Origin: Eledone cirrhosa
Taxonomy: Eukaryota
Assembly: GCA_964016885.1 (NCBI GenBank)
Contig: OZ024740.1
Coordinates: forward strand, 168,206,001 to 168,270,000
Reading direction: 5' to 3'
DNA: 64,000 nt
Under the pieces are notes generated by a model. That model worked only from the letters and a program-made list of their open reading frames with translations. It was not told the DNA's origin and made no database searches. Shown here in pieces: positions 3,470 to 56,964 of the stretch. The position numbers were made by a program, and so were the translations under genes. The number at the start of each line of letters is the position of its first letter. Position 1 is the stretch's first letter.

Positions 3470-4101
3470 TGATATTCCTAGCTTTCGGTCTAGGTAAAAA
3501 CACATTAGTACTAATTAATACTAAAGGACACAGGGCTATGCAATATTAAAAATGAGTTCCGAATCGAATCATTCTTGTCTATTTGTTGTGGTTCTTGATC
3601 CTACATATGTTGTTGTTGTTTTGTGTTTTTGTTATAGGGGAGATCATTTTCCGTGTCTTGATGTTGGTAGTGGTGGTGATGATGGTATTTGTTAGCCCAA
3701 AATTAGACCTGGATCTAAACCACAACGACATATTAGGAGGTTTCTCCTGTATTTCTTGTCATCTATGTAAAGAGTACGACGAACTATATAAAAAAAAATA
3801 TTCAAACTTTATATGTTTATATTATTTACAATTTTTCCACAGCAGCGTTGAAAGAAATGCGGGATCACAATAGATGAAATCTGAGTTATATTGGAGTATC
3901 CAACATACTAGATATGGCAGCCAGCTCTCTCTCAAAACAGCAAACTCTAGTTCAGAAAATGCCGTTCAAAAGATTTAGGATGTATTGTGATTGTGATGTG
4001 GCGTTACAGCTATGTAACATTACATTTCGTTCAGTTCCTGAATCGACATGCAGTATTATATGAAGATTTAAAGAAAGAAAAAACTAATAAAGAAACTTTT
4101 A

Positions 4102-4166
4102 AGGTTTCGCCGAAACTTAAACTCGGTTAGCTGGATTCAGAGTGTTAACCATTACACCATACAACT
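4102..4166 (-). pseudogene. tRNA-Gln(CUG) pseudogene with 7-bp anticodon-arm deletion
   Basis: aggtttcgccgaaacttaaactcgg..ggattcagagtgttaaccattacacc. Confidence 0.8.
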
Positions 4167-4545
4167 ACCTTGGCATCTTATCATGCAAAAAAATTAATTT
4201 ATTGAAATGGGTTTAACTTTATCTCTTTCACCAACTCTCCAACGTGGCTCCACCGATCTCATATTGAAGTATTTTTATCTTTCAAATTCTCTCGTTTAAT
4301 TCTTCTTTTTATAGTTTCTCATTCGAATTCCAGCGACAATTTTATACGGTCCCTCTGCCTGTTTGAAATAGCAGCCAAATTTCTAACACTTTATACAATA
4401 TCGCCTTAAAAATTAAGGTCACGTGAGATCGGTGGACTCACGTTTGTGAGTGGGTGAAAGAGATAAATTTAAACACTTGCAATCCATTGTAATAAATTAA
4501 TTTTATGTAGTAATATATACATTTTGCACAATAAAATGCCTCAAA

Positions 4546-4617
4546 AGTTGCATGGTGTAATGGTTAGCATTCAGGACCCTGCATCCAGCTATCCGAGTTG
4601 AAGACTCTGTGAAACCT
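4546..4617 (+). pseudogene. Degenerate tRNA-Gln
   Basis: catggtgtaatggttagcattcaggaccctgcatccagctatccgagttgaag; B box and anticodon loop mutated. Confidence 0.8.
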
Positions 4618-4656
4618 TAGAGTAAGCAAATAGTATTTATATGAACGTTAAAAAAA

Positions 4657-4728
4657 AGGTTTCACCGAGACTTGAACTTGGATCACTGGATTCAAAGTCC
4701 AGAGTGCTAACCTTTGCACCACGAAACC
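4657..4728 (-). pseudogene. tRNA-Gln(UUG) pseudogene, several substitutions
   Basis: Full length but A box, T stem and acceptor altered; convergent with the 4546 copy. Confidence 0.75.
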
Positions 4729-5152
4729 CGCCTGGAATAGCTGCTCAGCACCAAATTGAGAACTAATCCGGGAACCAGCGAGGTAGAAATAGCGCCCATC
4801 TCACACCTTACCTTTTATAAGTAACGTCATATTACTGTAGATAATATAGTCTTATATAACACTAAAAACACGGAATAGTCACCACAGCAATACATCCTAA
4901 ACTATTAGAACAATATTGATAAGGAATCAACGAGCTAACATGTTAATATACTGTTATACACAATTGAAAATTTGAGCTGGTAACGACAGAAATAAGTTTG
5001 ATCCTATGTTTATTGTATCTTGGATTTGTTATCCATTTGGTTCTAAAATTTTAAGAATTTGTCGTGATCGCGATGTAGGATTTCATCTCCTTCGACTCTG
5101 GAACGATTAATTAGGTAGTAGTTATGTGGAGGTTTAAAATAATTGCATTTTA

Positions 5153-5224
5153 AGGTTTCGCCGAGACTTGAAATCAGATAACTAGATTCAAAGCTCAGAA
5201 TGCTAGCTATTACACCACGAAACC
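5153..5224 (-). pseudogene. Degenerate tRNA-Gln(UUG)
   Basis: aggtttcgccgagacttgaaatcagataactagattcaaagctcagaatgctagctattacaccacgaaacc. Confidence 0.75.
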
Positions 5225-5469
5225 CCCCTAGAACAACTGGTTCATAGGTCTGGTGTACATGGTGTACATGAGTATTATCTACATCACGAACAATAGACAG
5301 ATATGCACTTTTACAAGTGTTTAAATATATGTCGTATACTCACCTACCTGTTGCCACATCACATATGCACATTTTTAACTCCTTATTTTTTATTTTAAGT
5401 CTAATCGTTCCATCATTGAAGGAAAAGAAATATTACATCCAGAATAAATCTTTATCAATTGTAACACAC

Positions 5470-5660
5470 CTTACCGTTACAGGAGAAAGTCGATTAAATC
5501 GACTCCACTGTTATACTGGTGATTTGTTTTATCGATCACGTGAAGATAAAAGTCAAATCTTAACTCGGCGGCAATTGCGCTCAGAACGAAATGGGACTTA
5601 ACTATATGCCACAAAGCAATATGTCCGACTCTCTCCAGATACTGCTGATTCACCGCCCTA
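5470..5660 (-). mobile_element. Old tRNA-derived SINE, head-to-head with the tRNA-Gln at 5713
   Basis: Reverse complement of head agggcggtgaatcagcagtatctggagagagtcggaca..ctgagcgcaattgccgccgag..gacttttatctt..cgataaaaca; same family as the 13067 copy. Confidence 0.7.
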
Positions 5661-5712
5661 TCTGCAATGCAAAAAATAAATATAATGAAAGATGCTCCCG
5701 TTGTACCAGACG

Positions 5713-5784
5713 GGTTTCATGGTGTAATGGTTAGCACTCTGGACTTTGAATCCAGCGATCCGAGTTCAAGTCTCGGTGAAACCT
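5713..5784 (+). tRNA. trnQ-UUG: tRNA-Gln (UUG)
   Basis: GGTTTCATGGTGTAATGGTTAGCACTCTGGACTTTGAATCCAGCGATCCGAGTTCAAGTCTCGGTGAAACCT; complete cloverleaf, A/B boxes, downstream T-run. Confidence 0.96.
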
Positions 5785-6838
5785 TTAAATCCAAATTTTT
5801 TCGTTTTAACGTTAATATAAATATTACCTGATCAATCATTCTGGAAGTGAAGGAAATATAATCCTACCCTACATCCCAATCAAAATAAATCCTAAATTTT
5901 AGAACCAAATTGAAAAATAATCCGGTAACCAAAGTGTTAGTAACAGCGCTCGTCTCTCATTGAAATCTCACCCTACCGTTGATAGCGAGTTAACGAGCTA
6001 ACGTGTTAATATACTGTTATACACAATTAAAGATTTGAGCTGGTCACGAGAGAAATACGTTTGGTTTATTGTATCCTGAATTTATTATCAATTTGGTTCT
6101 AAAAGTTTAAGTTTTGTTGTGATTGCGATGTAGGTTTACATCTCCTTCAATTCTGGAACGATTAATCAGATTGTATTTATATGAACGTTAAAAACAATGA
6201 TTTTTAAAGTTGCGCGCAGATTCCGATCGCGAGATTCAAAGGCCAGAATAAATACTCTGCAAAATGTTTCTCTTGTTTTCTTGTTTAAATATATGTCACA
6301 ATCTCTCCTACTTTTTGCCATCTCACTCACATTGAAATCTTTCTAACTTTCAATTTCTGTCGTTTTATTCTGCCTTTTATACTTTATCCTTCAATATCGC
6401 TTTATAAATTAAAGACACATTGGCCATCATAATCCCTGATGTACAAAAGTACGGGATGGTCAAAACTGGAGGGCCGTTATTTATAGGTCTGCTGTACATG
6501 AGTATTATCTACATCACGAACAACAGACAGATTTGTACTTTTACATTGAGGCTCACTCTTTGGGTCAAATTTGCGATAAGGCATCCCAGCTTGTTGCAGC
6601 TAGTATATGTTCTTTAATAAATGTTTATTGTGTTATTTTCTGACGTGGAATGAGTAGGATATGGTGGTGTTGTGTCAGAGTATGCTGGTTTACACACTTT
6701 TTCTCACTACTGTGAAAAGTGCTTAAAATTTAATTTTGTTCATTTCAAGTACGGTTTAGTGAAACTAATAAATAAAAAAAAACATATGAATGCACATCAA
6801 ATATTTCTATGAGATTTGAAATTGGATTGATGGATTCA

Positions 6839-7030
6839 AGACCTGTCAACTAACCCCGTCTGACGGGGTGATCTAACCCCACTTTATGGTAGGTGAAAGA
6901 TGTTTGCTATTGTAAAAATGGGTATAGCTTTCATTATGTAAAATCTCCTTATTTTGCCTCATTTATTCCCGTTTAGGTGCACTTTTATTCATGGTACTCC
7001 CAGTTTGGTATTTCAGAGGTTGGCAGATCT
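6839..7030. mobile_element. 192-bp hAT-like MITE inserted in the anticodon arm of a tRNA-Gln pseudogene (copies in every array-A unit and near 53.8 kb)
   Basis: TIRs AGACCTGTCAAC / GTTGGCAGATCT; 8-bp TSD TGGATTCA (6831-6838) / GGGATTCA (7031-7038). Confidence 0.65.
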
Positions 7031-7453
7031 GGGATTCACAGTCAAGAACGATAACCATTACACCATGAAACTAGTTCCTAAGAAACTTTAATTATATTTA
7101 TTTTTTACATTGTATAACAAAGTTAAAATATATCTGTCGCGTGATCAACGACATATATCCATCGTTCTGATGGTAAAGTGTGATTATGCTACAATTTCTC
7201 TCGTCTTTTACGTACATACAACAGGAAACCAGTAAAAGAATAAATATTAGAACAATATTGATAACGACTCCACGAGCTAATTTGTTATTATGCCTCACAC
7301 ACCAATAAATCATTTGAGCTGGTCATAACAGAAATACGTTTAATCATAGCTTTATTGTATCAAGGTTTAGCAATAAAAATCTCGATGTTGTTAGACAATT
7401 GAAACAAGATAAATGAAAGATACAGACATTTAGCTGAGCAAATATCGCAGGCA

Positions 7454-7525
7454 GGTTTCATGGTGTAATGGTTAGCACTCTGGACTTTGAATCCAGCGAT
7501 CCGAGTTCAAGTCTCGGTGAAACCT
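7454..7525 (+). tRNA. trnQ-UUG: tRNA-Gln (UUG)
   Basis: Identical to 5713 copy; long T-run terminator downstream. Confidence 0.96.
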
Positions 7526-10500
7526 TAAAAGTCTATTTTTTTTTTTTAACGTTCCTATCAATGCTACCTGATTAATCGTTCCAGGATTCAAAGAGATGTA
7601 AGACAATCACAATGAATGCTAATCTTTTAGAACCATATTGATAACTTATCCGGTAGTCAAATGGTAGAAATATATTTTACCTCTCCTTCATATGATACCC
7701 TACTGTTAAAAATAATGTCACATCAGTTTACATAATATTGTCTTTTATACCACTAAAACAAACGGAGTAGTTACAACAGCAATACATCCTAAACTATTAG
7801 AACGTTATTCATAACGTATCCACGAGCTAACATGTTAATACATACTTACACATCACTGGATGTTTGAGCTGGTTACAACAGAAATACGTTTGATTGTGTA
7901 AATGTTTAGCCTGGTATTATCACTAGCAAAATCTCCCAGCTGTTAGACAACTGAAGTTGACACCATTTATTCTTTTACCAGTTTCCTCGTGTATACATAT
8001 AAAAGATAGGAGTAATGTGAAATATATATTTTAGATTGGTTGTGCAGTGTAAGAAATACATATGATTAAGGTTTCTTTGGAAATGGTTTCCTATTACACC
8101 AACGTGACTCCAGCGATCTCATGTTAAAGTGTTTTTATCTTTCAATTTCTCTCGTTTGATTCTTCCTCTTTTCTAGTTTCTCGTTTGTATTCCAACGACA
8201 ATTTTGTACGGTCATTCTGACTGTTAGAAATAGCTGCCAAAGTTTCAACATACGATAAATATTACCTCATAAATTAAAGACACCTTAGATATCATAGACC
8301 CTGATATACAAAAGACCGGAATGATCAAATCTGGAATGCCGTTGATCATAGATCTGCTCTACATGAGTATTATTTAGAATATCAACAACAGACATATGTT
8401 CAACACACCTGAATATTTAGGCTCACTCCTTGGGTCTACTTTACGGTATGTCATCTCACCTGGGGTAACAGGAATATGATTTTCAGGTGTGTTTTTTAAC
8501 CTTTATTAATGTTATCAAAATATTCTTCATTAGAATTGTATACTTCTCTGTCCCACAAAGAAGTCTTCCTATTGCTCCATTAACATAATGGCGTGTGGTT
8601 GACAGAATTAATAGTGGATCGTATAAAATTACGTAATGTTACGTTTATAACATTAGCACTGGAGTCGATGGAATTGATTATGTCATGGAAGTCAATGTTC
8701 CATCATCACACAGTCGAAATAACGAAAGCAGTATAAGAATGATCTCTAATCTAGACGCAAGGAATGAGAAAGTCGATCATATCGATTCCAGTATTTGATT
8801 TTTACTTTATTTTATTGGCCCCAGAGGTATGAAAGGCAAAGGTGATGTCAGAGTGTAACGAACCGAAAAATACCGCAATGCATTTCACCTAGCACTCTGA
8901 CGATTCTGTTAATCCACCGTCCTCAAAGCAGTAAAATAATAAAAGCAATTGGGTGTTGTATGTTATTTCTTAGTAAGGTGACTAGCCAATGTGTAATAAA
9001 TACTACTCTAAAGCTATAAGAATTGGTGGAGTTTGGAAACAGTATTTCTTTTCCTTCTGTTCTGAAAAGATTGGAAATAAAATCATTATAGTCGGTTTAA
9101 AAGAATACGTTTTCATGGTATCATTAAGATTCGAACTCAGATGGATGGTGTGATAAACACTACAACATGGGACCCTGCAATGGATTGATGTCTTGACCAG
9201 GGAAAGTCTTTACTTGCAGTCGCTTAACACTGATGAGATCAGGATAAGCAGCGACCTGATGATCCGGCGGACTAGAGAATAATACATTAAATTCATTTAT
9301 TGCATTGCATAACAAATCTTTAAATCTATGTGTCACACTCTCTTACATGGCTTTTCACCACTCTTATCATAGAGAGGATTATTTCTCATTTTCTCACCTT
9401 ATTCATTAATAGAGGTACATTCTACGCATTCTCTCTATCTCTTAGAAACAGAAACCATATATACCACTTCAAGAAAAACAAGGGCGCATTAAATAGTGTA
9501 ATTCCTGATATACAAAAAGACTGGATTATTAAGTCGTGCATGCTTTTGATACCACGTTGGCTCCCGGATCAGTTATCGATTTGGTTCTAAACATTTAGGA
9601 TTTATTGTGATTGTGATTTAGGATTATGTTTCCTTCAATTGTGGAACGATTGATCGGGAATTATTTATATGAAGGTTGAAACGAAAAAATATAGAAAAAA
9701 TTTAAAGCTTTCACCGTAACTTGATCTCGGATCGCTGGAATCAGAGTCCTACCCATTACACCATGAAATCTTCTTAGTTTAAGTGTATTTCTCGTGTCTT
9801 TTACATACATAAAAAAGTAAACAAGTAAAAGATTAGGATTCATTGTGACTGCGATGTAGCCTTACTTCTCTTTCAATCCTGGATCAATTGATCAGGTAGT
9901 ACTTATATGAACGTCAAAACGAAAAAGTATAGATTTAAAGGTTTAACCATTACACCATGAAACCCGTCTCTGACAGCTGCTCAGTTGATATTCATATTGC
10001 TAGTTTAATTTCCTTTATTGTATGTTTATCTTGCAATTACTCTTGTCCTTTATTTAGATACACGAGGAAACCTGTAAAACACTAAATGGTGTCAACTCCA
10101 GTTGTCTAACAGCTCCGAGATTTTTGTTGATGTATAATACCAGGCGAAACCTATGTCGCTGATCACGTGACAGATATATTTTAACTTTGTTATACAATGT
10201 AAGAAATAAATATAATTAAAGTTTCTTAGGCACAAGTTTCATGGTGTAATGGTTATCGTTCTGGACTCTGAAACCCAAACCTTCCAACCTCCAAAACCCA
10301 AACGGGAAGTACCATGAATATAAGTGCCCCAGAACGGAGAGGAATGCGGCAACATGGGGAGCTTTTACATAATGAAAGCTATACTCATTTTCACAATAGA
10401 AGACATCTCTCCCCCACCATAAAGCGGATGGTAGATATCCCTGGCGGAGGGGGGTAGTTGACATGTCTTGAATACATTCATCCATTTTCAAATCTCATTG

Positions 10501-11073
10501 AATATTTTGTGTATTTTTTTTATTTATTAGTTTCGCGAAATCGTTTTAGAAATGAACAAAATGAAATCTTCGGCACAGTAGTGAGAAAAAGTGCGTAAAC
10601 CAACATGCTCTGATACAGCACCACATTATCCTACTAATTCCACGTCAGATAAGAACACATTAAACATTTTTTTAAAGAACGTATTCCTTCTACTACATGT
10701 GGAATACCTTAGCAGAAAGCTGACCCAAAGAGTGAGCCTCAATGTAAAAGTACATATCTGTCTGTTGTTCGTGATGTAGATAATACTCATGGACAGCAGA
10801 CCTATAAATAACGGCCCTCCAGTTTTGACCATCCCGTACTTTTGTATATCAGGGATTACGATGTCCAATGTTTCTTTAATTTATAAAGTGATATTGAACG
10901 ATAAAGTAGGAAAGGAAGAGTAAAACGACAGACATTGAAAGTTAGAAAGACTTCAATGTGAGATGGCAACAGGTAGGAGACATTCTGAAATATATTTAAA
11001 CACTTACTATGTAAAAGAATCAAGGGAATTAAGAAAACAAGTTAAACATTTTACTGAGTGCTTATGGCAGACG

Positions 11074-11145
11074 GGTTTCGTGATGAAATGGTTAGCATTA
11101 TTGTCTTTGAATCTAGCGATCCTTGTTCAAGTCTCGACGAAACCT
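11074..11145 (+). pseudogene. tRNA-Gln(UUG) pseudogene of array A (one per unit)
   Basis: ggtttcgtgatgaaatggttagcattattgtctttgaatctagcgatccttgttcaagtctcgacgaaacct; D, anticodon and T stems broken. Confidence 0.8.
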
Positions 11146-11378
11146 AAGAAATAACATTTATTTAACGTTCATATAAATACCTTATTCATTGTTCTCGAAA
11201 TGAAAGAGATGTTAGATATTTCTACTAGTTTGACTACCAGATTAGTTATCAATTTGGTTCTAATGGTTCAGGATATATTTTGATTGTGGTGGAGGGGAGG
11301 ATTATACTTCTTTCATTTCTAGAACTCTTGATCAGCTAGTACTTATATGAACGTCAAAACGAAAAAGTATAGATTTAA

Positions 11379-11450
11379 AGGTTTCACCGAGACTTGAACT
11401 CGGATCGCTGGATTTAGAGATCAGAGTGCTAACCATTACACCATGAATCT
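11379..11450 (-). pseudogene. tRNA-Gln-derived sequence with CUA (amber) anticodon, copy 1
   Basis: AGATTCA TGGTGTAATGGTTAGCACT CTGAT CT CTA AA TCCAG CGAT CCGAG TTCAAGT CTCGG TGAAACC T; A/B boxes intact, 2 acceptor and 2 anticodon-stem mismatches. Confidence 0.85.
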
Positions 11451-11846
11451 GCTTAATTCCAGCGTATTTCTCTTGTCTTTTACATACATAAGAGAGTAAA
11501 CCAGTAAAAGAATAAAAAGTGATGTATAAGTATGTATTAACAGTTCGTGGATACGTTATCAATAACCTTCTAATAGATTAGGATGTATTTCTGTCGTAAC
11601 TACTCCGTTTGTTCTAGTGGTATAAAAGACTACATTATCTAAAGTGATATGATGTAATTTTTAACAGTAGGGTGTCATATGAAGGAGAGGTAAAAGCTAT
11701 TTCTACCACGTTGACTACAGGATAAGTTATCAATTTGGTTCTACAAGATTACGATTCCTTGTGACTGCGATGTAGCCTTACATCTCTTTCAATCGTGGAT
11801 CGATTGATCAGGTAGCTTTGATAGGAACGTTAAAATAAGGTTTTGT

Positions 11847-11918
11847 AGGTTTCACCGAGACTTGAACTCGGATCGCTGGATTCAAAGTCCAGAGTGCTAA
11901 CCATTACACCATGAAACC
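11847..11918 (-). tRNA. trnQ-UUG: tRNA-Gln (UUG)
   Basis: Exact reverse complement of canonical copy. Confidence 0.95.
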
Positions 11919-13066
11919 CGTCTCTGAGAGCTGCTCAGTTGATATTCATATTGCTAGTTTAATTTCCTTTATTGTATGTTTATCTTGCAATTACTCTTGT
12001 CCTTTATTTAGATACACGAGGAAACCTGTAAAACACTAAATGGTGTCAACTCCAGTTGTCTAACAGCTCCGAGATTTTTGTTGATGTATCATACCAGGCG
12101 AAACCTATGTCGCTGATCACGTGACAGATATATTTTAACTTTGTTATACAATGTAAGAAATAAATATAATTAAAGTTTCTTAGGCACAAGTTTCATGGTG
12201 TAATGGTTATCGTTCTGGACTCTGAAACCCAAACCTTCCAACCTCCAAAACCCAAACGGGAAGTACCATGAATATAAGTGCCCCAGAACGGAGAGGAATG
12301 CAGCAACATGGGGAGCTTTTACATAATGAAAGCTATACTCATTTTCACAATAGAAGACATCTCTCCCCCACCATAAAGCGGATGGTAGATATCCCTGGCG
12401 GAGGGGGGTAGTTGACATGTCTTGAATACATTCATCCATTTTCAAATCTCATTGAATATTTTGTGTATTTTTTTTATTTATTAGTTTCGCGAAATCGTTT
12501 TAGAAATGAACAAAATGAAATCTTCGGCACAGTAGTGAGAAAAAGTGCGTAAACCAACATGCTCTGATACAGCACCACATTATCCTACTAATTCCACGTC
12601 AGATAAGAACACATTAAACATTTTTTTAAAGAACGTATTCCTTCTACTACATGTGGAATACTTAGCAGAAAGCTGACCCAAAGAGTGAGCCTCAATGTAA
12701 AAGTACATATCTGTCTGTTGTTCGTGATGTAGATAATACTCATGGACAGCAGACCTATAAATAACGGCCCTCCAGTTTTGACCATCCCGTACTTTTGTAT
12801 ATCAGGGATTACGATGCCCAATGTTTCTTTAATTTATAAAGTGATATTGAACGATAAAGTAGGAAAGGAAGAGTAAAACGACAGACATTGAAAGTTAGAA
12901 AGACTTCAATGTGAGATGGCAACAGGTAGGAGACATTCTGAAATATATTTAAACACTTACTATGTAAAAGAATCAAGGGAATTAAGAAAACAAGTTAAAC
13001 ATTTTACTGAGTGCTTATGGCAGACGGGTTTCGTGATGAAATGGTTAGCATTATTGTCTTTGAATC

Positions 13067-13252
13067 AGGGCGGTGGATTGGCAGTATCAGTAGAGGGTCG
13101 GAGGCCATGCTTTCCAGCATAGTTACGTCCCTTTACGATCTGAGTTCAAATCCCGCCGAGGTTGACTTTGCCTTTCATCCTTACAGGGTCGATAAAATAA
13201 AGTACCAGTAATGCACTGGATAATTGCTGGCCTTGTGCCTAAAATAGAAACA
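13067..13252 (+). mobile_element. Full-length tRNA-derived SINE, recent insertion in a single array-A unit
   Basis: B box GAGTTCAAATCCC; central GTTGACTTTGCCTTTCATCC..GGTCGATAAAATAAAGTACCAG domain; perfect 17-bp TSD ATTATTGTCTTTGAATC (13050-13066 and 13253-13269); absent from other units. Confidence 0.92.
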
Positions 13253-13534
13253 ATTATTGTCTTTGAATCTAGCGATCCTTGTTCAAGTCTCGACGAAACC
13301 TAAGAAATAACATTTATTTAACGTTCATATAAATACCTTATTCATTGTTCTCGAAATGAAAGAGATGTTAGATATTTCTACTAGTTTGACTACCAGATTA
13401 GTTATCAATTTGGTTCTAATGGTTCAGGATATATTTTGATTGTGGTGTAGGGTAGGATTATACTTCTTTCATTTCTAGAACTCTTGATCAGCTAGTACTT
13501 ATATGAACGTCAAAACGAAAAAGTATAGATTTAA

Positions 13535-13606
13535 AGGTTTCACCGAGACTTGAACTCGGATCGCTGGATTTAGAGATCAGAGTGCTAACCATTACACCAT
13601 GAATCT
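13535..13606 (-). pseudogene. CUA-anticodon tRNA-Gln derivative, copy 2
   Basis: Identical to 11379 copy. Confidence 0.85.
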
Positions 13607-14002
13607 GCTTAATTCCAGCGTATTTCTCTTGTCTTTTACATACATAAGAGAGTAAACCAGTAAAAGAATAAAAAGTGATGTATAAGTATGTATTAACAGT
13701 TCGTGGATACGTTATCAATAACCTTCTAATAGATTAGGATGTATTTCTGTCGTAACTACTCCGTTTGTTCTAGTGGTATAAAAGACTACATTATCTAAAG
13801 TGATATGATGTAATTTTTAACAGTAGGGTGTCATGTGAAGGAGAGGTAAAAGCTATTTCTACCACGTTGACTACAGGATAAGTTATCAATTTGGTTCTAC
13901 AAGATTACGATTCCTTGTGACTGCGATGTAGCCTTACATCTCTTTCAATCGTGGATCGATTGATCAGGTAGCTTTGATAGGAACGTTAAAAAAAGGTTTT
14001 GT

Positions 14003-14074
14003 AGGTTTCACCGAGACTTGAACTCGGATCGCTGGATTCAAAGTCCAGAGTGCTAACCATTACACCATGAAACC
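14003..14074 (-). tRNA. trnQ-UUG: tRNA-Gln (UUG)
   Basis: Canonical sequence. Confidence 0.95.
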
Positions 14075-44074: not shown

Positions 44075-46481
44075 CATCTGGTATATCGTAAGCCTCTTTC
44101 ATTATAATTATTTTTTGCATTTCAGTTAGTACGGTGAATCAACAGTATCTGGGGAGAGTCGGACAGATTGCTTTGTGGCAGAAAGTTCAGTCCCATTTCT
44201 TTCTGATATCAATTGCCGCCGAGTTAAGATTTGACTTTTATCTTCACGTCATCAATAAGACTGATCACCAGTAGAACAGTGGGGTCGATTTAATCGACTT
44301 TCTCCTATAACGGTAAGGTGTGTTACAATTGATAAAGTTTTATTCTACATGTAATATTTCTTTTCCTTCAATAATGGAACGATTAGAATTAAAATAAAAA
44401 ATAAGGAGTTAAAAATGTAAAAGTGCATATATGATGTGGCAACAGATAGGTGAGTGTTTGACATATATTTAAACACTTGTAAAAGTGCAGATCTGTCTAT
44501 TATTCGTAATGTAGATATTACTCATGTACACCAGACCTATGTACAACGGACTTCATGCTTTGACCATCCTGTACTTTTGTATATCAAGGCTTATGATACC
44601 CATTATGTCTTTAATTTATACAGTGATATTATGTAATGTGTGAGAGAGATATGGTTACGTCTGAATAAGACAGACAGCGGTCACGTCGTCAGTTAATGAG
44701 TAATGAGGAAATTGAAGGAGACATTTAAACAAGAAAGAATAATACGTAAGAGGTTGAAAGTTAAACAAACTTCAATATGAGTAAGATGGCAACAGGTGGG
44801 CGAGCATGTGACATATATTTAAACACTTGCTATGTAATACAATCAAGGGAATTAATCAAGGAATATAAGGAGTTTGTTGAGCAGTTGTTCTAGGTGGGTT
44901 TCGTGATCAAATGGCAAGCATTCTGAGCTTTGAATCCAGCAAAATCTTTAAAATATTTTTTTTCTTTAACCACCATATAACTACTACCTGACTAATCGTT
45001 CCAGAATTAAAGGAGTTGTAATCCTACATGGCAATCATAACAAATCCTAAAATCTCAGAACCAAATTGATAGCAAATCCAAGATACAATAAACATATGAT
45101 CAAACATATTGCTGTAGTGACCAGCTCAAACTTTTAGTATTGTATAACACTATATTAACTTGTTACCTCATTGATTCGTTATCAATATTGATCTAATAGT
45201 TTATGATGTATTGCGGTGGTGACTTTCCCGTGTTTTAGTGTTATATAAGACATTTATTATCTAAAGTAATATGACGTTATTATAACGGTAAGGTGTGATT
45301 TGAATGAAAGATGAGTGCTGTTGCTACCACGTTGGCTCCCGGATGAGTTATCAATCTGATACAGAACACCTATTCTAAGTGGGCTTCGTGGTGTAATGGT
45401 TAGCACTCGGGAGTTTGAATCCAGCGATTCAAGTCTCGGCGAAACCTTTTTTTTTTATTTTAACGTTCCTATAAATACTATTTGTTTATCATGGATTTAA
45501 AGGTTTCACCTAGACTTCAACTCGGATAGCTGGATGCAGGCCCCAGAATGCTAACCATTATACGATCAAACGTTTGTGCCATTGTGTTATGCAAAATGTT
45601 TATATTACTACATAAAATAAATTTATAGCAATGGGTTGCTAGTGTTTAAATTGATCTCCTTCACCCACTCACCAACGTGACTCCACCGACCTCATGTTAA
45701 AGTGTTTTTATCTTTTAATTTCTCTCGTTTCATTCTTCCTCTTTTCTAGTCTCTCGTTTGTATTCCAACGACAATTTGATACGGTTCCTCTGCCTGTTAG
45801 AAATAGCAGCCAAAGTTTTCAATACTATTATAAATGCTTAAGATTTGTTCTGGCTGAGATCTGACAGTTCTTTCCCGTCATTTCTGGAAAGATACGATTA
45901 AAATAATACAATAAAAACATATAGTCATCTAAATTTTCAGTGAGATTTGAATTTGGATTGATAGATTCAGAGTCCAGAACGATAACCTCTATACCATGAA
46001 ACCATTTGCAAAGATGCCTTAAGTATATGAATTTCTTACATTGTATAACAAAGCAGAAATATATGTCACATGATCAACGACATGTGCCCAGCTTTCTGAC
46101 GTTGAAGAGTATTTATCTGTCAATTTCTCTTGCCTTTTACTACATAAGAGAGGAAACCAGTAAAAGAATAAACGGTGCCTACGTCAGCTCGTGGATACGT
46201 TATCAATAACCTTCTAATAGTTTAGGATGTATTGCTGTTGTAACTACTCCGTTTGTTTTAGTGGTATAAAAGATAATATTATGTAAAGTGATATGACGTT
46301 ATTTTTAACAGTAGGTTGTGATTTGAAGGAGAGGTGAAAGCCAGTTGGCTTCCTGATTAGTTATCAATATGGTTTTAAAAGATTAGGATTCCTTATGATT
46401 GCGAATAGCCTTACATCCCTTTCCTTCCTTAAACGATTGATCGTGTAGTTTTGATAGGAACGTTTAAAAAAATGATTTTTA

Positions 46482-46553
46482 AGGTTTTACCGAGACTTGA
46501 TCTCGGATCACTGGATTCAGAGTCCAGAGTGCTAACCATTACACCATCAAAAC
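46482..46553 (-). pseudogene. tRNA-Gln(CUG) pseudogene
   Basis: B box (GTTC>GATC) and acceptor stem mutated. Confidence 0.8.
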
Positions 46554-47903
46554 TTTCCTGTTATACCTGCTCAGCTAAATGTTTGTATTGTTAGTATAAT
46601 TTCATTTATTGTATTACATAACAAGTGTTTAAATATATGTCACACACTCACCAACATGATACCGTCTCACCCACGATGAAGTTTATCTTTCAATTTATTT
46701 CCTTTTATTCTTCCTTTTCTACATTTTCATTCGTTTTACACCTTACTCATTAACTGACGACGATTAGACATGAACTCTATGTCTCATAGAAATAGCTGTC
46801 AAATCTCATGACACAAAATTGTCTAACAAATTAAGGACATATTGGACATCATACTACGTAATATAAAAAGAGAATGGGACGGCCTTAGCTGGAAGGCCTA
46901 TGTTCATACGCCTGCTGTATATGAGTATTACCTACATTGCCAACAACATATTTACGCAGCTGTACACTGAGGCTCATTCTTGGGGTCAGCTTTGCAATAA
47001 GGATTCTTACCTGTCGTAGTTGGAATACGGTCTTTGGAAAGTGTTTATTGAATACTTTTCTGACGTGTCGTTTGGAGGAGGGTATGGTGCTATTTTAGAA
47101 TATGTTTTGTTTCACAGGATTGTTCTCAATACTATTATAAATGCTTAAGATTTATTCTGGCTAAGATCTAACCTTTCGTTTCCGTCATTTCTGGAAAGAT
47201 ACAATTCAAATAATAAATCAAATACAGCCATCTTAAGCTTGAATGAGATTTGAGATTAGATTGATGGATTCAGAATCCAGAACGATAACCATTACACCAT
47301 GTAAGCATTTCCAAAAACACCTTAATTATGTGTATTTCTTACATTGCACAACAAAGCTAAAATATATATCTGTCACATGATCAACGACATGTGCCCAGCT
47401 CTCTAATGTTAAAGTGTATTTATCTTTCAATTTCTCTTGCCTTTTATGAGGAAACCAGTCAAAGAATAAATAGTGTCTACTTCAGTTGCATAACAGCTTG
47501 GAGATTGTGTTGATGACAACACAAAGCTAAATTTTGATACAATAAACTTATGATCAAACATATTTATGTTGTTACCAGCTCAAATCTACTGTGATGTATA
47601 ACTATGAATTAACATATTAGCTCGTGGATACATCATTAATAATCTTCTGAAAGTTTAGGATGTATTGCTTTCGTAACTACTCCGTTTATTTTATCTAAAG
47701 TGATATGATGTTATTTTTAACAGTAGGGTATGATTTGAAGTAGAGGTGAAAGATATGTGTACCACGTTGACTACTGGATTAGTTATCAATATGGTTCTAA
47801 AGAGTAGGATTCATTGTGATTGCGATGTAGCTTGACATCTCTTTCAAACCTGGAACGATTGATCGAGTAGCATTGTTAGGAACGATAAAAAAGATGATTT
47901 TTG

Positions 47904-47975
47904 AGGTTTCACCGAGACTTGAACTCGGATCGCTGGATTCAAAGTCCAGAGTGCTAACCATTACACCATGAAACC
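47904..47975 (-). tRNA. trnQ-UUG: tRNA-Gln (UUG)
   Basis: Canonical sequence. Confidence 0.95.
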
Positions 47976-50605
47976 CATCTGGTATAACGTAAGCATCTTT
48001 CATTATAATTATTTTTTGCATTTCAGTTAGTACGGTGAATCAGCAGTATCTGGAGAGAGTCGGACATATTGCTTTGTGGGATAGAGTTCAGTCCCATTTC
48101 GTTCTGAGTTCAATTGCCGCCGAGGTAAGAATTGACTTTTATCTTCACGTCATCAATAAGACTGAACAGTGGGCTCGATTAAATCGACTTTCTCCTATAA
48201 CGGTAAGGTGTGTTACAATTGATAAAGATTTATTCTACATGTAATATTTCTTTTCCTTCAATAATGGAACGATTAGAATTAAAATAAAAAATAAGGGGTT
48301 AAAAATGTAAAAGTGCATATATGATGTGGCAACAGATAGGTGAGTGTGTGACATGTATTTAAACACCTGTAAAAGTGCAGATCTGTCTATTATTCGTAAT
48401 GTAGATATTACCCATGTACACCAGACCTATGTACAACGGACTTCATGCTTTGACCATCCCGTACTTTTGTATATCAAGGCTTATGATACCCATTATGTCT
48501 TTAATTTATACAGTGATATTATGTAATGTGTGAGAGAGATATGGTTACGTCTGAATAAGACAGACAGCGGTCACGTCGTCAGTTAATGAGTAATGAGGAA
48601 ATTGAAGTAGACGTTTAAACAAGAAAGAATAACACGTAAGAGTTTGAAAGTTAAACAAACTTCAATGTCAGTGAGATGGCAACAAGTGTGCGATCATGTG
48701 ACATGTATTTAAACACTTGCTATGTAATACAATCAAGGGAATTAATCAAGGGATATAAGGAGTTTGTTGAGCAGTTGTTCTAGATGGGTTTCGTGGTCTA
48801 ATGGCTAGCATTCTGAGCTTTGAATCCAGCAAAATCATTAAAATATTTTTTTTCTTTAACCTCCATATAACTACTACCTGACTAATCGTTCCAGAATTAA
48901 AGGAGTTGTAATCCTACATGGCAATCATAACAAATCCTAAAATCTCAGAACCAAATTAATAGCAAATCCAAGATACAATAAACATATGATCAAACATATT
49001 GCTTTAGTGACCAGCTCAAACTTTTAGTATTGTATAACAGTATATTAACTTGTTACCTCATTGATTCGTTCTCAATATTGATCTAATGGTTTATGATATA
49101 TTGCTGTGGTGACTTTCCCGTCTTTTAGTGTTATATAAGACATATATTATCTAAAGTAATATGACGTTATTATAACGGTAAGGTGTGATTTGAATGAAAG
49201 ATGAGCGCTGTTGCTACCACGTTGACTCCCGGATGAGTTATCAATCTGATACAGAACAGCTATTCTAAGTGGGCTTCGTGGTGTATTGGTTAGCACTCGG
49301 GACTTTGAATCAAGCGATTTGAGTTCAAATTTTGGCGAAACTTTTTTTTTTTTATTTTAACGTTCCTATAAATACTATTTGCTTAATCGTGGATTTAAAG
49401 GTTTCACCGAGACTTCAACTCGGATGGCTGGATGCAGGCTCCAGAATGCTAACCTTTATACGATCAAACGTTCGTGGCATTGTGTTATACACAATGTTTA
49501 TATTACTACATAAAATTAATTTATTGCAATGGGTTGCTAGTGTTTAAATTTATCTCCTTCACCCACTCACCAACATGACTCCACCGACCTCATGTTAAAG
49601 TGTTTTTATCTTTTACTTTCTCTCGTTTCATTCTTCCTCTTTTCTAGTTTCTCTTTTGTATTCCAACGACAATTTGATACGGTTCCTCTGCCTGTTAGAA
49701 ATAGCAGCCAAAGTTTTCAATACTATTATAAATGCTTAAGATTTGTTCTTGCTGAGATCTGACAGTTCTTTCCCGTCATTTCTAGAAAGATACGATTAAA
49801 ATAATACAATAAAAACATATAGTCATCTAAAGTTTCAGTGAGATTTGAATTTGGATTGATAGATTTAGAGTCCAGAACGATAACCTCTATACCATGAAAC
49901 CATTTCCAAAGAAGCCTAATGTATATGAATTTCTTACATTGTATAACAAATCAGAAATATATGTCACATGATCAACGACATGTGCCCAGCTTTCTGACGT
50001 TGAAGTGTATTTATCTGTCAATTTCTCTTGCCTTTTACTACATAAGAGAGGAAACCAGTAAAAGAATAAACGGTGCCTACGTCAGATCATGGATAACGTA
50101 TCAATAAGCTTCTAATAGTTTAGGATGGATTGCTCTCGTAAACCATTAAGAAATTAAATGGTGTCAACATCAGATGCCTTACAGCTTGGAGATTTTTGTT
50201 GGTGATAACAAAAGGCTAAACATTGAGAGAATAAACTTATGATCAAATGCATTTCTGTTGTGACCAGCTCAAAACTCCAGTGATGTATAAGTATATATGA
50301 ACATGTTAGCTCGTGGATACGTTATCAATAACCTTCTAATAGTTTAGGATGTATTGCTGTTGTAACTACTCCGTTTGTTTTAGTTGTATAAAAGACAATA
50401 TTATGTAAAGTGATATGACGTTATTTTTAACAGTAGGGTGTGATTTGAAGGAGAGGTGAAAGCCAGTTGGCTTCCTGATTAGTTATCAATATGGTTCTAA
50501 AAGATTAGGATTACTTATGATTGCGATATAGCCTTACATTCCTTTCCTTCCTTAAATGATTGATCGTGTAGTTTTGATAGGAACGTTAAAAAAATATTAT
50601 TTTTA

Positions 50606-50677
50606 AGGTTTCAGCGAGACTTGATCTCGGATCGCTGGATTCAGAGTCCAGAGTGCTAACCATTACACCATGAAACC
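50606..50677 (-). pseudogene. tRNA-Gln(CUG) pseudogene
   Basis: B box GTTC>GATC and T-stem change. Confidence 0.75.
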
Positions 50678-52031
50678 TGCCTGTCATACCTGCTCAGCTA
50701 AATGTTTGTATTGTTAGTATAATTTCCTCTATTGTATTACATAACAAGTGTTTAAATATATGTCACACACTCACCAACATGATACCGTCTCACCCACAAT
50801 GAAGTTTATCTTTCAATTTATTTCCTTTTATTCTTCCTTTTCTACTTTTTCATTCCTTTTACACCTTACTCATTAACTGACGACGATTAGACATGAACTC
50901 TATGTCTCATAGAAATAGCAGTCAAATCTCGTGACACAAAATTGTCTAACAAATTAAGGAGATATTGGACATCATACTACGTAATATAAAAAGAGAATGG
51001 GATGGCCTTAGCTGGAAGGCCTATGTTCATACGCCTGCTGTATATGAGTATTACCTACATTGCCAACAACATATTTACGCAGCTGTACACTGAGGCTCAT
51101 TCTTGGGGTCAGCCTTGCAATATGGATTCTTACCTGTCGTAGCTGGAATACGGTCTTTAGAAAGTGTTTATTGAATACTTTTCTGACGTGTCGTTTGTAG
51201 GAGGGTATGGTGCTATTTTAGAGTATGTTTTGTTTCACGCGATTGTTCTCAATACTATTATAAATGCTTAAGATTTATTCTGGCTAAGATCTAACCTTTC
51301 GTTTCCGTCATTTCTCGAAAGATACAATTCAAATAATAAATCAAATACATATAGCCATCTTAAGCTTGAATGAGATTTGAGATTAGATTTAATGGATTCA
51401 GAATTCAAAACGATAACCATTACACCATGTAAGCATTTCCAAAGACACCTTAATTATGTTTATTTCTTACATTGCACAACAAAGCTAAAATATATATCTG
51501 TCACATGATCAACGACATGTGCCCAGCTTTCTAATGTTAAAGTGTATTTATCTTTCAATTTCTCTTGCCTTTTATGAGGAAACCAGTCAAAGAATAAATA
51601 GTGTCTACTTCAGTTTCATAACAGCTTGGAGATTGTGTTGATGACAACACAAAGCTAAACTTTGATACAATAAACTTATGATCAAACGTATTTATGTTGT
51701 GACCAGCTCAAATCTACAGTGATGTATAACTATGAATTAACATATTAGCTCGTGGATACATCATTAATAATCTTCTAAAAGTTTAGGATGTATTGCTTTC
51801 GTAACTACTCCGTTTATTTTATCTAAAGTGATATGATGTTATTTTTAACAGCAGGGTATGATTTGAAGTAGAGGTGAAAGATATGTGTACTACGTTGACT
51901 ACTGGATTAGTTATCAATATGGTTCTAAAGATTAGGATTCATTGTGATTGCGATGTAGCTTGACATCTCTTTCAATCCTGGAACGATTGATCGAGTAGCA
52001 TTGTTAGGAACGATAAAAAAGATGATTTTTG

Positions 52032-52103
52032 AAGTTTCACCGAGACTTGAACTCGGATCGCTGGATTCAAAGTCCAGAGTGCTAACAATTACACAATGAA
52101 ACC
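52032..52103 (-). pseudogene. tRNA-Gln(UUG) pseudogene at the array-B edge
   Basis: A-box G residues and acceptor end mutated. Confidence 0.75.
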
Positions 52104-52985
52104 TGTCGGGATCACCGACTCAACTAAATGTTTATATTGCTAGTTAAATTTCCCTTATTTCTATTACATAACAAGTGTTTAAATATACGTCACACACTCA
52201 CCTACGTGTTGCCACCTCACTCCCATTGAGGTCTGTTTATCTTTCAATTGTTCTTGTCTTTTAAGTACATACAACAGGAAAACATTTAAAAGATAAATGT
52301 TATCACCTTCAGTTGTCTAACAGCATGAAGATATGTGTTGATGTATAATACCAGGTGAAATCTTGATACAACAAACCCGTTATCCAAGGCGGGAGTTGTA
52401 GTGTAATGGCTAACACTCTGGACTTTGAATCGAGCGATCTGAGTTCAATTCTCGGCGAAACCATAAAAATTACATTTATTTAACGTTCATATAAACACTA
52501 TCTGATTTATCGTTCCAGAATTGAAGGAGATGTAAGCCTACATCTCAAACACAATAAATCTTAAAATTTTAGAACCAAATTGATAATAACTCCAAGATAC
52601 AATAAACATATGATCAAACGTATTTCTGTTGTGACCAGCTGAAACTTTTAGTTGTAATTAACAGTATATTAACATGTTAGCTCGTTGTTTCCTTATCAAT
52701 ATTGTTCTAGTAGTTTAGGATGTATTGCTGTGGTGACTATTCTGTGTTTTTAGTGTTATATAAAACTATATTATCTAAAGTAATATGACGTTACTTATAA
52801 AGATAAGGTGCGATACGAACGAGAGCGGTATTTCTACCTCGTTGGTTCCCGGATTAATTACCAATTTGGTTCCAAAAGTTTAGGATGTATTTTGATTGTG
52901 ATATAGGATTATATTTCCTTCAATTCTGGAACAATTAATCAGGTAATATTTATATGAACTTTAAAATGAAAAAAAAAGATTTCGA

Positions 52986-53057
52986 AGGTTTCACCGAGAC
53001 GTGAACTCGACTCGCTGGATTCAGAGTCCAGAATGCTAACCATTACACCATGAAACC
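52986..53057 (-). pseudogene. tRNA-Gln(CUG) pseudogene
   Basis: T-loop, T-stem and D-stem substitutions. Confidence 0.75.
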
Positions 53058-54759
53058 TCGTCTACGATGTCTACTCAGCGCAAATGTTTGTATTGTTAGT
53101 ATAATTTCCTTTATTGTATTACATAACAAGTGTTTAAATATGTGTCACACATTCACCTACATGTTGCCATCTCATTCACAATGAAGTTTATCTTTTATTT
53201 TCTTTCGTTTTATTCTTCCTTTTCATTAACTGACGACGATTAGGCGTGATCCTTCCGTGTCATAGAAATAGCAGGCAAATCTCGTGACACAATATCTTAT
53301 AAATTAAGGACATATTCGACATCATAATACCTGATATACAAAATAATGTGATGGCCATAACTGGAAGGCCTTACGTTGATAGGTCTGTTGTATATGAGTA
53401 TTATCTACATAACCAACAATACATATTTACGCAGCTGTACATTAAGGCTCACTCTTGAGGTCAAAGTCCAGAGTGCTAACTATTACACCATGAAACCCGT
53501 CTCTGACAGCTGCTCAATTGATATCTATATTGCTAGTTTAATTTCCTTTATTGTATGTTTATCTTTCAATTACTCTTGTCTTTTATGTACATACACGAGG
53601 AAACCTGTAAAACACTAAATTGTGTCAACTCCAGTTGTCTAACAGCTCCGAGATTTTTGTTGATGTATAATACCAGGCTAAACCTATGTCGTGACAGATA
53701 TATTTTAACTTTGTTATATAATGTAAGAAATAAATATAATTAAAATTTCTTAGGCACAAGTTTCATGGTGCAAAACGGGAAGTGCCCCCAAACGGAGTGA
53801 TGGGGGGCAAAATGGGGAGATTTTACATAATAAAAGCTATACCCATTTTCACAATAGAAGACATCTCTCACCCACCATAAAGTGGATGCTAGATATCCAT
53901 GTCGGAAGGGATAGTTGACAGGTCTTGAATCCATCAATCCAATTTCAAATTTCATTGAAATATTTGATGTGTATTCATGTTTTTTTTTATTTATTATAAA
54001 TCGTACTAGAATTGAAGAAAATTAAGTCTTAAACATTTTTCACAGTAGTGAGAAAAAGTGTGTAAACCAACATGCTCTGATACAACACCACCATATCCTA
54101 CTAATTCCACGTCAGAATAGATCGCAATAAACATTTATTAAAGAAGATATTCCTTCTACTACATGTGGAATACCTTAGCAGAAAGCTGACCCAAAGAGTG
54201 AGCCTCAATGTAAAAGAACAAATCTGTCTGTTGTTCGTGATGTAGATAATACTCATGTACAGCAGAACTATAAATAACGGCCCTCCAGTTTTGACCATCC
54301 CGTACCTTTTTACATCAGGGATTATGATGTCATTAATTTATAAAGCGATATTGAAGGAGAAAGTAGAAAAGGAAGAATAAAACGACAGAATTGAAAATGT
54401 AAACCTATATCGCAATCACAACAAATCTTAAAATTTTAGAACCAAATCGATAATTATTTCAGGATACAATAAACATATGACCAGCCGTATTCCTCTCGTG
54501 AACAGCTCGGATTTTTAGTTGTATATAACAGTATATTAATATGTCAGTTCGTTAATTCATTATCAACGGTAGGGTGCAATTTCAATGAGAGACGAGCGTT
54601 ATTTCTACCACTTAGGTTACCGGATTATTTATCAATTTGGTTCTGAAATTTAGGATTTATTTTGACTGTGGTGTAGGGTAGGATTATATTTCCTTCACTT
54701 CTAGAACGTTTGATCAGGTAGTACTTGTATGAACGTCAAAACGAAAAGATATAGAATTA

Positions 54760-55225
54760 AGGGCTTCACGGAGACTTGAACTCGGATCGGTGGATTCAAA
54801 GTCCAGACTCCTAACAATTACACCACGAAACCCGGCTGATATGTCTTAAGCATCTTTAATCATATTTATTTTTTGCATTGCAGATAGGGCGGTGAATTAG
54901 TAGTATCTGGAGAGAGTCGGACAAAATGCTTTGTGGCATATAGTTAAGTCCCATTACGTTCTGAGTTCAAATGCCGCCGAGGTAAGCTTTGCCTTTTATC
55001 CTTACGCGATCGATAAAACAAATCATCAGTAGTTACCAATTTTTGTTCTAACAGTTTAGGATTTATTTTGATTGTGATATAGGATTATATTTCTTTCAAT
55101 TCTGGAACAATTGATCAGGTAATATTTATATGAACGTTAAAAAGAAAAAATATAGATTTAAAGGTTTCACGGAGACTTGAACTCGGATCGCTGGATTCAG
55201 AGTCCTAACCATTACACCATGAAAA
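54760..55225 (-). pseudogene. Two degenerate tRNA-Gln copies (about 54761-54832 UUG; about 55162-55225 CUG with 7-bp deletion) separated by a SINE fragment
   Basis: Recognisable T arm, anticodon arm and A box remnants. Confidence 0.7.
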
Positions 55226-55270
55226 ACTTTTTAAGAATCCCTAATTATATTTATTATTTGCATTGCAGAT

Positions 55271-55494
55271 AGGGCGGTGAATTAACAGTATCTGAAGAGT
55301 GTCAGACAGAATGCTTTGTGGAATATAGTTATGTCCCTTTACGTTCTGAGTTTAAATGCCGCCGAGGTTAAGCTTTGACTTTCATCCTTACGGCATCAAT
55401 AAAACAAAGTACCAGTAGCACGCTGGGGTCGATTTGATCGACTTTCCCCTCTCTAAAATGTGTTGGTCTGGTGCCTAAATCAGAAACTATTATT
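55271..55494 (+). mobile_element. tRNA-derived SINE
   Basis: agggcggtgaatt..gagtttaaatgccgccgagg..ctttcatcctt..aaagtaccag..ggggtcgat..gtgcctaaatcagaaactattatt. Confidence 0.75.
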
Positions 55495-56964
55495 TGCATT
55501 GCATAACAAAGCTAAAATATATCTATCTTTTGCTGAACTACATATTTCCATAATTTTAGTTTCTCTTTTATGTATCCCCACCGGGAAATTAGTAAAAGTA
55601 TAAGTTATTCATCAGCTTGTAGTATTTTTGTTGAAGTAATCGAAACCGGTACTGTACTGTTAAATTTTCTTATCAACATCGGAAAGATGGAAGGTATAGT
55701 TGAGCTCCGAAGTATTTGAACTCAGAACGCAGGAAGCCGCAACGATTACTGGAAAGCATTCTGTCCGAAGTTGTATCAACTCTGCCAATTCCCTGTCTTC
55801 AGTATTTGTATGAAGGTTAAAAAAGAAAGAAATTTTTCATAGAGCGTTGGATTCAGAACCCAGAATGCTGACCGTTACACATTGTTTCAGAACTTACAGT
55901 TTTTACATCAACAGAATGTCAAGTGGATAGGTAACTGGAATTAATACCACATTATTTTACTACTGATTTATGTATGTTGGGATGTCTTGAGCAATTAAAT
56001 AACATCCCTCTCCTTGTCTGAACACAGCCAATATCTCAAGGGAAAGAAAGAGAGAGGGGGGGGGGTGAGAACGAGATATAGAGATACAAAAGAAGAATCA
56101 ACCCTAGTATTAGAGATATTATAGAAACACTTTAATTGTTAAGGGGATCTCATGCTGTAATATTCACCACTCTGATCTCCGAATCTAGTGATCCGAGATT
56201 CCTTTGTATTCTTATAAAATTATTTCCAGTCTTTCTACAACAAAAAGGAATGTTTAATGTGTATTTGTACTAATGTTGTCGTTGTTGTTACTGTTGTTGT
56301 TGTTGTTGTTCGCGATGTTATGGTATGGGTTAATACTTTTTGAACAGACCTATTATCCAATACTTTGCTCTATACATCCTTTTTTGTTTAAGATTGTAGT
56401 GTGTGATTTTTAGGAAAGTTTTGTTGCTACTTCTAATATGTAGAGCGATAATGTAGATGGTTGACTCATGTGTACGATACGATCTGTGTGCTTGTACCCA
56501 TTTTATTTCCCATATGAAATATGAAGTTTTGAGAAACATTGATTAACTGACGTTGCAATAAGAAAACAATACCTCCGATTAAAGATGTATAAAATTTCAA
56601 AAAAAAACAAGCAATTGAAATAACTTGAATGATATCAGCTAATCCCAATGTTTATGGAAAATGAAGACAATGTATTTAGAGACAAAAGATCTCTTAATAC
56701 CAAGCACTAAATGACCATTTTATGGAAGTCACCAGTGAGAACTCCGATGTCCTTTGTTTCTAGTCTGACATTTTCTTTCACCAAATAGTGACGAGGGAAT
56801 TACCTGAAAAGGAGTGCCTGATGAAGTGTAGCTTGCTAGCTGTTCATCTTACCCGCGGGACGCAGATGAAATATACCGTCCAGTAAATGGTGTGGAATTT
56901 ATCCCAGCAATGTTTACACCATTTTTTTCTTTTTTGTCTGTTTCTTCCATTTTATTTTTCACTT

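What the first reader, a model, noticed from the sequence alone, without database searches (positions are those of the whole stretch)
4000..56205. 52-kb single-isotype tRNA-Gln cluster organised as two higher-order tandem arrays
Seen: every tRNA-like sequence I found here derives from tRNA-Gln. There are 14 canonical genes, 4 near-canonical variants and dozens of pseudogenes. Old tRNA+flank modules were shuffled into two different units (1954 bp and about 3.9 kb), each then amplified 5-6 times with near identity. In each unit the intact tRNA stays perfect while paralogous flanks and sibling copies have decayed. Inference: a copy-number-variable tRNA-Gln dosage locus under birth-and-death plus concerted evolution. 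It may also act as a TFIIIC insulator hub next to the SAM gene.
Basis: partly seen in the sequence, partly recalled or inferred. Interest (0 to 1): 0.75.

Follow-up and report, generated by a model that had tools for sequence, protein, structure and literature searches.

The report
Octopod glutamine tRNA gene cluster
This is a real 52-kb cluster of about 18 intact and 70 decayed glutamine tRNA gene copies that share a sequence variant found nowhere else in this octopus-type genome, and it likely grew by ordinary local duplication, like the larger alanine, valine and aspartate tRNA arrays in the same genome, rather than to boost glutamine supply.

Summary
The window has 92 tRNA-Gln-like copies (14 perfect, 18 with an intact cloverleaf) and two arrays (1,954-bp unit x5.65; ~3.91-kb unit x6) built from older cluster pieces. 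Unit mosaics, a SINE in one unit and ~10-fold contig depth show the arrays are real and recombining.

New here: all intact genes share an acceptor stem (U4:A69, U5:A68, C6:G67) found only in this window (19 of 19 and 21 of 21 genome matches). They make up 18 of the 39 intact tRNA-Gln genes I found. Five independent lineages are perfect while their flanks diverged 19%, so selection (or conversion) acted.

Not supported: inside the arrays intact genes are no better conserved than spacer (5.6% vs 5.5% variable), and 3 of 6 CTG copies are decaying. Gln is not singled out: 38 core matches against 130 for Asp and 202 for Ala, which sit in larger arrays. The five amber-anticodon copies are structurally broken. 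The insulator role is untested.

This scan already found Val, Pro and Met arrays elsewhere in this genome; I confirmed Val. Verdict: a new member of a known kind (tandem tRNA cluster under birth-and-death turnover), with a cluster-private isodecoder worth one tRNA-seq test.

The parts
4102..56217 (.). tRNA-Gln-only cluster: 92 copies, both orientations
   Evidence: no Gln-like hit in 30 kb upstream, two genes of another body type 12.7 kb past the end
5713..5784 (+). perfect tRNA-Gln(TTG), single copy
7454..7525 (+). perfect tRNA-Gln(TTG), single copy
9944..21198 (.). Array A: 1,954-bp unit x5.65; each full unit has one perfect TTG gene (11847, 14003, 15957, 17911, 19865; minus), one amber-anticodon dead copy and two more dead copies
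11379..11450 (-). first of five CTA-anticodon Gln-derived copies, one per A unit; 4 of 21 stem pairs broken, A/B boxes intact
13050..13269 (+). SINE-like insertion with 17-bp target-site duplication, in unit A2 only, inside a dead tRNA-Gln copy
24585..24656 (-). near-canonical TTG gene (4 changes, cloverleaf kept with two new G-U pairs)
25710..25781 (-). near-canonical TTG gene (3 changes, two new G-U pairs)
28135..52103 (.). Array B: ~3,911-bp unit x6 plus start of a seventh; each unit has one TTG gene (28357, 32269, 36182, 40093, 44003, 47904, 52032), one CTG gene (30849, 34761, 38673, 42577, 46482, 50606), five dead copies and one old SINE
2893..3058 (+). last exon of a SAM-domain gene (neighbour, not part of the cluster); stop codon about 1 kb before the first copy

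Best explanation
This is a single-amino-acid tRNA gene cluster with a private tRNA-Gln variant, which likely arose from one founder gene and grew by repeated local duplication, with selection likely keeping a few copies perfect while the rest died. Shown: all intact copies carry one acceptor stem (U4:A69, U5:A68, C6:G67) found only here; dead copies carry it too; the units are mosaics of older modules; array B has recombined in tracts. Inferred sequence: (1) a founder acquired the stem by a compensatory pair swap; (2) 0.3-0.9-kb gene-plus-flank modules were copied and inverted nearby about 30 times, one lineage switching base 34 to give CTG; (3) most copies were lost from selection at different times; (4) two blocks were then multiplied by unequal crossing-over, carrying dead copies along. 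The intact genes are likely Pol III-transcribed and add to the ordinary Gln pool; the array sizes likely drift.
For: Private stem: 19 of 19 and 21 of 21 exact pattern matches in the 3.0-Gb genome lie in the window; 0 of 35 outside copies have it on both strands. Among 27 full-length lineages, positions 4, 66, 67 and 68 of the gene each differ in only 1. Selection: 5 of 27 lineages have 0 changes in 355 body sites against 114 of 611 in their downstream flanks (Fisher p=4e-25); Poisson expectation of perfect lineages is 0.016. The other 22 lineages have 13% body against 29% flank divergence, as expected if they died at different times. Recombination: 775 of 1,485 informative site pairs in B are incompatible; adjacent incompatibility is 9 against 28 in permutations, 0 of 10,000 as low. 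Real DNA: array-A contigs at depth 78-93 against 7-9 for the unique flank. Transcription, indirect: all 18 intact genes have a T4+ run 9-12 nt downstream; columns at -1 to -20 vary in 21 of 59 against 48 of 326 at -41 to -150 in families with a live gene (p=3.5e-4), with no such rise in 7 dead-dead pairs (26/140 vs 137/735). Genome-wide habit: Ala-only, Val-only and Asp+Glu arrays.
Against: No RNA or Pol III data. Gene conversion confined to the tRNA body could give the same perfect lineages without each being selected. Flank divergence is inflated where modules recombined. The upstream signal depends on the pairs chosen (independent sets: p=0.19, 0.08, 1e-5), and in array B it also appears beside dead copies (12% vs 15%). 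Depth suggests up to twice the assembled units of A, so the assembly may under-count. No related species could be compared.
Confidence: 0.78

Rival explanations
1. The cluster is a separately regulated tRNA-Gln supply: the private isodecoder is switched on in one tissue, sex or stage, and the arrays were favoured to raise its dose.
For: One locus, one private body type, both anticodons, 18 of 39 intact genes and 15 of 26 TTG genes found; the variant was kept through ~19% flank divergence; -21 to -40 is the best conserved upstream part (8/120). Young lineage-restricted isodecoders show sex-biased expression in Drosophila (PMC12704002, abstract seen).
Against: Other Gln clusters are also uniform in their own body type (C6, C2), as local descent predicts. 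The stem swap is near-neutral in fold energy (-21.2 vs -21.6 and -23.9 kcal/mol). Copies inside the arrays are decaying at the spacer rate.
Confidence: 0.13
2. The arrays are silent passengers: the perfect copies in A and B are perfect only because amplification is recent or conversion repairs them, and at most the two single genes are used.
For: Array A has no power (P of 0 variable sites in 72 = 0.53); in B intact bodies vary at 8 of 144 columns against 158 of 2,860 background; 3 of 6 CTG copies are damaged.
Against: The founders of A and B were perfect while their flanks had diverged 19-27% from consensus, so they were maintained until amplification; B TTG copies vary at 1 of 72 columns (p=0.09).
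Confidence: 0.2
3. The locus is kept as a TFIIIC boundary beside the SAM gene, B boxes mattering more than tRNA output.
For: It starts about 1 kb after the SAM stop codon; many dead copies keep box-like sequence; the human 1q23.3 tRNA repeat is proposed as a boundary (PMC4041453, abstract seen).
Against: Conservation covers the whole cloverleaf in live lineages, not boxes alone; in dead lineages B-box positions 52 and 55 of the gene are mutated in 5 and 4 of 27. Nothing here measures chromatin.
Confidence: 0.06
4. The arrays are assembly artefacts.
For: Units are up to 99.85% alike.
Against: Each unit has its own variants, one has a private SINE with target duplication, B shows tract mosaics; contig depth on A is about 10 times the flank. 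Array B depth was not measured.
Confidence: 0.02

Closest known systems
Arabidopsis Ser-Tyr-Tyr array, 27 triplet units (PMC2886086; abstract and section 17 read)
   Same: Multi-gene unit amplified by unequal crossing-over, concerted evolution, a mix of working and non-working genes; dosage selection was tested there and judged unlikely.
   Different: Here one amino acid, two different units, most genes per unit dead before amplification, inverted modules, and a private acceptor stem.
tRNA homoclusters such as Arabidopsis Pro (PMC13578239; passages seen, which also say Gln genes may cluster in some plant taxa)
   Same: One isotype family repeated locally.
   Different: Lower density of intact genes (at most 3 per 5 kb); animal genome.
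Human 1q23.3 tRNA VNTR (PMC4041453; abstract and outline seen)
   Same: Kilobase-scale unit with tRNA genes in tandem.
   Different: That unit is 7.3 kb and GC-rich, with shown copy-number variation and CTCF binding; none of that is shown here.
tRNA turnover and isoacceptor remolding in primates and flies (PMC4981973; passages seen)
   Same: Tandem duplication, rapid pseudogenisation, lasting switches within one amino acid (TTG/CTG here), other anticodon changes mostly in pseudogenes (CTA here).
   Different: Here the whole life cycle lies in one 52-kb locus with about 33 lineages.

Membership tests
Functional eukaryotic tRNA-Gln gene | Complete cloverleaf, invariant bases, TTG/CTG anticodon | tested here: met
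   18 of 33 window copies within 10 changes of the reference; Rfam 66.9-68.4 bits for the perfect ones
Functional eukaryotic tRNA-Gln gene | Pol III terminator downstream | tested here: met
   T4+ run 9-12 nt downstream in 18 of 18
Functional eukaryotic tRNA-Gln gene | Conserved above flanks | tested here: met
   Between lineages 0/355 vs 114/611; not detectable within arrays
Functional eukaryotic tRNA-Gln gene | Transcribed and charged | not testable with these tools
   Only an indirect flank-mutation signal
tRNA homocluster (PMC13578239) | Single isotype family | tested here: met
   All ARAGORN calls are Gln or Gln-derived
tRNA homocluster (PMC13578239) | 5 or more genes within 5 kb | tested here: inconclusive
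   6 Rfam hits in 11379-16028, but at most 3 intact genes per 5 kb
Concertedly evolving tandem array | Head-to-tail near-identical units | tested here: met
Concertedly evolving tandem array | Exchange between units | tested here: met
   Array B mosaic; A has too few sites
tRNA VNTR | Unit number differs between alleles or individuals | tested here: inconclusive
   Depth ratio about 10 against 5 near-identical assembled units; RAD runs uninformative
Amber suppressor tRNA | CUA anticodon in an intact cloverleaf | tested here: not met
   Pairs 1:72, 3:70 and two anticodon-stem pairs broken; -8.5 vs -21.2 kcal/mol
tDNA/TFIIIC insulator | TFIIIC binding and boundary activity | not testable with these tools
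   no chromatin data
tRNA-Gln-derived SINE | Dispersed copies with shared body and tail | tested here: not met
   The body type is confined to the window; apart from SINE-sized matches, only one 537-bp match to cluster DNA in 28 outside loci

The most novel reading that the evidence does not exclude
The cluster is a dedicated gene bank for an octopod-specific tRNA-Gln isodecoder, supplying about half of the UUG genes from one locus under shared control, so that it is turned on in one tissue, sex or stage and tuned by array length; units that carry several isoacceptors of one amino acid (Gln, Ala, Val here) would be amplified as balanced cassettes.
Probability: 0.13. Interest if true: 0.65.

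Novelty: new member of a known kind. Interest (0 to 1): 0.3.

Why it matters
As it stands it is a clean natural record of tRNA gene birth, anticodon switching, death and re-amplification in one locus. Because its stem variant is unique to the locus, tRNA-seq can assign reads to the whole cluster, which is rarely possible for tandem tRNA genes; this makes 'are arrayed tRNA genes used, and where?' directly testable. It does not point to a Gln-specific adaptation.

Tried and rejected
Within-array conservation test: null. Amber suppressor reading: rejected on structure. Gln-specific amplification: rejected on counts (patterns differ in length and each covers one core, so the comparison is rough). 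CpG-driven decay: weak; C>T 9/80 at CpG vs 29/316 elsewhere, G>A 13/80 vs 27/428. The stem-pair table was mis-set for the D and anticodon stems and was redone; only its terminator column and the L029 line are used. Run search: no RNA holder listed. RAD-seq runs X5-X7 covered mainly a short dispersed repeat and gave no copy number. RF00005 over the genome scored only 63 candidates and was useless for counting. Metagenome scan for the 5' part: 1 contig, with U5-G68 instead of U5:A68. The protein atlas gave nothing. Paper searches (listings only) showed no report of this cluster or of octopod nuclear tRNA arrays; subscription journals and bioRxiv supplements are not covered, and the Aplysia preprint's supplementary tRNA list (passages seen) could bear on whether the variant exists in other molluscs.
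Full report
Setting. The window lies on a 443-Mb contig of a 3.0-Gb genome. The exon at 2893-3058 encodes the end of a SAM domain that is 96% identical to uncharacterised Octopus bimaculoides and O. sinensis proteins, so the animal is an octopod.

Inventory. A profile of the two perfect genes finds 92 copies at E<=0.01 and none in the reversed window: 14 perfect, 6 with 1-3 changes, 10 with 4-6, 39 older full-length copies and 23 fragments. Of 33 copies within 10 changes, 18 keep all 21 stem pairs and 12 invariant bases (15 TTG, 3 CTG), and all 18 have a T4+ run 9-12 nt downstream. The 30 kb upstream has no Gln-like hit; 50 kb downstream has two genes of another body type and two weak relics. 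A dispersed SINE-like repeat has 17 hits in the window and matches in most outside loci. tRNA-derived SINEs are known from octopus (reference title seen in PMC4758252); I did not match this one to a named family.

Architecture. Array A is 9944-21198: five 1,954-bp units at 99.3-99.85% and a partial one at 93-94%. Array B runs from 28135: six units at 96.2-99.5% and the start of a seventh. Each unit is a patchwork of older cluster DNA in both orientations (99.7% and 98.6% covered). An A unit holds one live gene and three dead; a B unit holds TTG, CTG and five dead. Unit A2 alone has a SINE with a 17-bp target duplication inside a dead tRNA. In B, 55 informative sites fall in tracts with changing partners: 775 of 1,485 pairs are incompatible and neighbours agree far more than in 10,000 permutations. 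This is conversion or unequal crossing-over.

Is it real? In run X1, four contigs on the A unit have depth 78-93 and three on the unique flank 7-9. That fits 5 units per haplotype if the flank contigs reflect one haplotype and about 10 if both. The tool warns that this is no copy number, and X1 may be the source of the assembly. It excludes an over-expanded artefact for A and leaves collapse or allelic difference open. B was not measured.

A private isodecoder. The genome has three acceptor stems for tRNA-Gln: C4:G69 type (next door, C9, C15, C26), C5:G68/U6:A67 type (C1, C2, C6, C7, C8, C19) and the window's U4:A69, U5:A68, C6:G67. Exact patterns for the two ends of the window type match 19 and 21 times, all inside the window. 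It differs from the neighbouring type by one compensatory pair. Dead copies carry it as well, so it predates the expansion. All three types occur with both TTG and CTG, so base 34 has switched or been converted repeatedly. The window holds 16 of 38 exact core matches and 18 of 39 intact genes in the window plus 28 fetched loci; five further outside genes with one recurring T-stem mismatch were not counted and would make it 18 of 44.

Selection. Collapsing the arrays to one unit each leaves 33 lineages, 27 full-length. Five are perfect: 0 of 355 body sites against 114 of 611 flank sites; a Poisson model expects 0.016 perfect lineages. The other 22 show 13% body and 29% flank divergence. Conversion between bodies cannot be separated from selection here. 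Within the arrays there is no signal: A lacks power (0.53), and in B intact bodies vary at 8 of 144 columns against 158 of 2,860, with TTG at 1 of 72 and CTG at 7 of 72.

Transcription, indirect. Active tRNA genes show raised mutation in their immediate flanks (PMC13010820, passages seen). In three upstream families with a live gene, 21 of 59 columns at -1 to -20 vary against 48 of 326 further out, and seven dead-dead pairs show no rise. I chose these pairs by best flank match, the result varies with the choice (p 0.19 to 1e-5), and in array B the rise is also seen beside dead copies. Suggestive only.

Dosage. One Asp core pattern has 130 matches and one Ala pattern 202, mostly in arrays of 1.34-kb and 1.27-kb units among the 100 listed of each. 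Samples show Asp+Glu units, Ala AGC+TGC units and Val AAC+CAC+TAC units. A second Gln cluster on C6 has 23 Gln-like hits and a 2.26-kb repeat. Tandem tRNA arrays are thus a habit of this genome and Gln is among the smaller cases. The Arabidopsis array study reached the same verdict on dosage. Codon demand was not computed.

Amber copies. Five A-unit copies read CTA, but pairs 1:72, 3:70 and two anticodon-stem pairs are broken. An independent broken CTA copy lies on C2 (L018:5336). They are pseudogenes amplified as passengers; their boxes and terminators are intact, so transcription is not excluded.

Verdict. Observation confirmed with two corrections; turnover model supported; adaptive dosage unsupported; insulator untested. 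New member of a known kind, interest 0.3. The private isodecoder is the one feature that makes the locus more than routine.

Noticed in passing
window array A, one copy per unit from 11379; also L018:5336-5407: Gln-derived copies with an amber (CTA) anticodon, intact A/B boxes and terminator but broken stems; arose independently twice in the genome.
   Followed up: yes
L030 (G000:C3, about 277.24-277.39 Mb and beyond): Array of 1.34-kb units each with divergent tRNA-Asp(GTC) and tRNA-Glu(TTC); 95 of the 100 listed Asp matches lie here.
   Followed up: partly
L031 (G000:C1 from 426.67 Mb): Ala-only array, 1.27-kb unit with AGC and TGC genes.
   Followed up: partly
L032, L033: Val-only array with AAC, CAC and TAC in each 1.89-kb unit; several arrays here carry more than one isoacceptor of a single amino acid per unit.
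   Followed up: partly
L019-L021, L028 (G000:C6 47.25-47.31 Mb): Second tRNA-Gln cluster of another body type, with live and dead copies in a 2.26-kb repeat at 98.7%.
   Followed up: partly
L029:601-672: A metagenome contig holds a tRNA-Gln with the window's 5' stem strand and a U5-G68 wobble, a possible intermediate state in another organism.
   Followed up: no
L024:3795-3909: Intron-containing tRNA that ARAGORN calls Met; by eye it resembles Leu(CAA) (recalled, not tested).
   Followed up: no
window 1627-1687: By eye, a further exon of the SAM gene with AG/GT ends.
   Followed up: no
window 59760-60050 and 63510-63790: By eye, a direct repeat of about 280 bp near what looks like a decayed reverse-transcriptase stretch on the minus strand; not translated or searched.
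   Followed up: no
window 50084-50307: 224-bp insert in unit B6 made of cluster flank DNA at about 83-86% identity to other modules, a late local duplication.
   Followed up: partly
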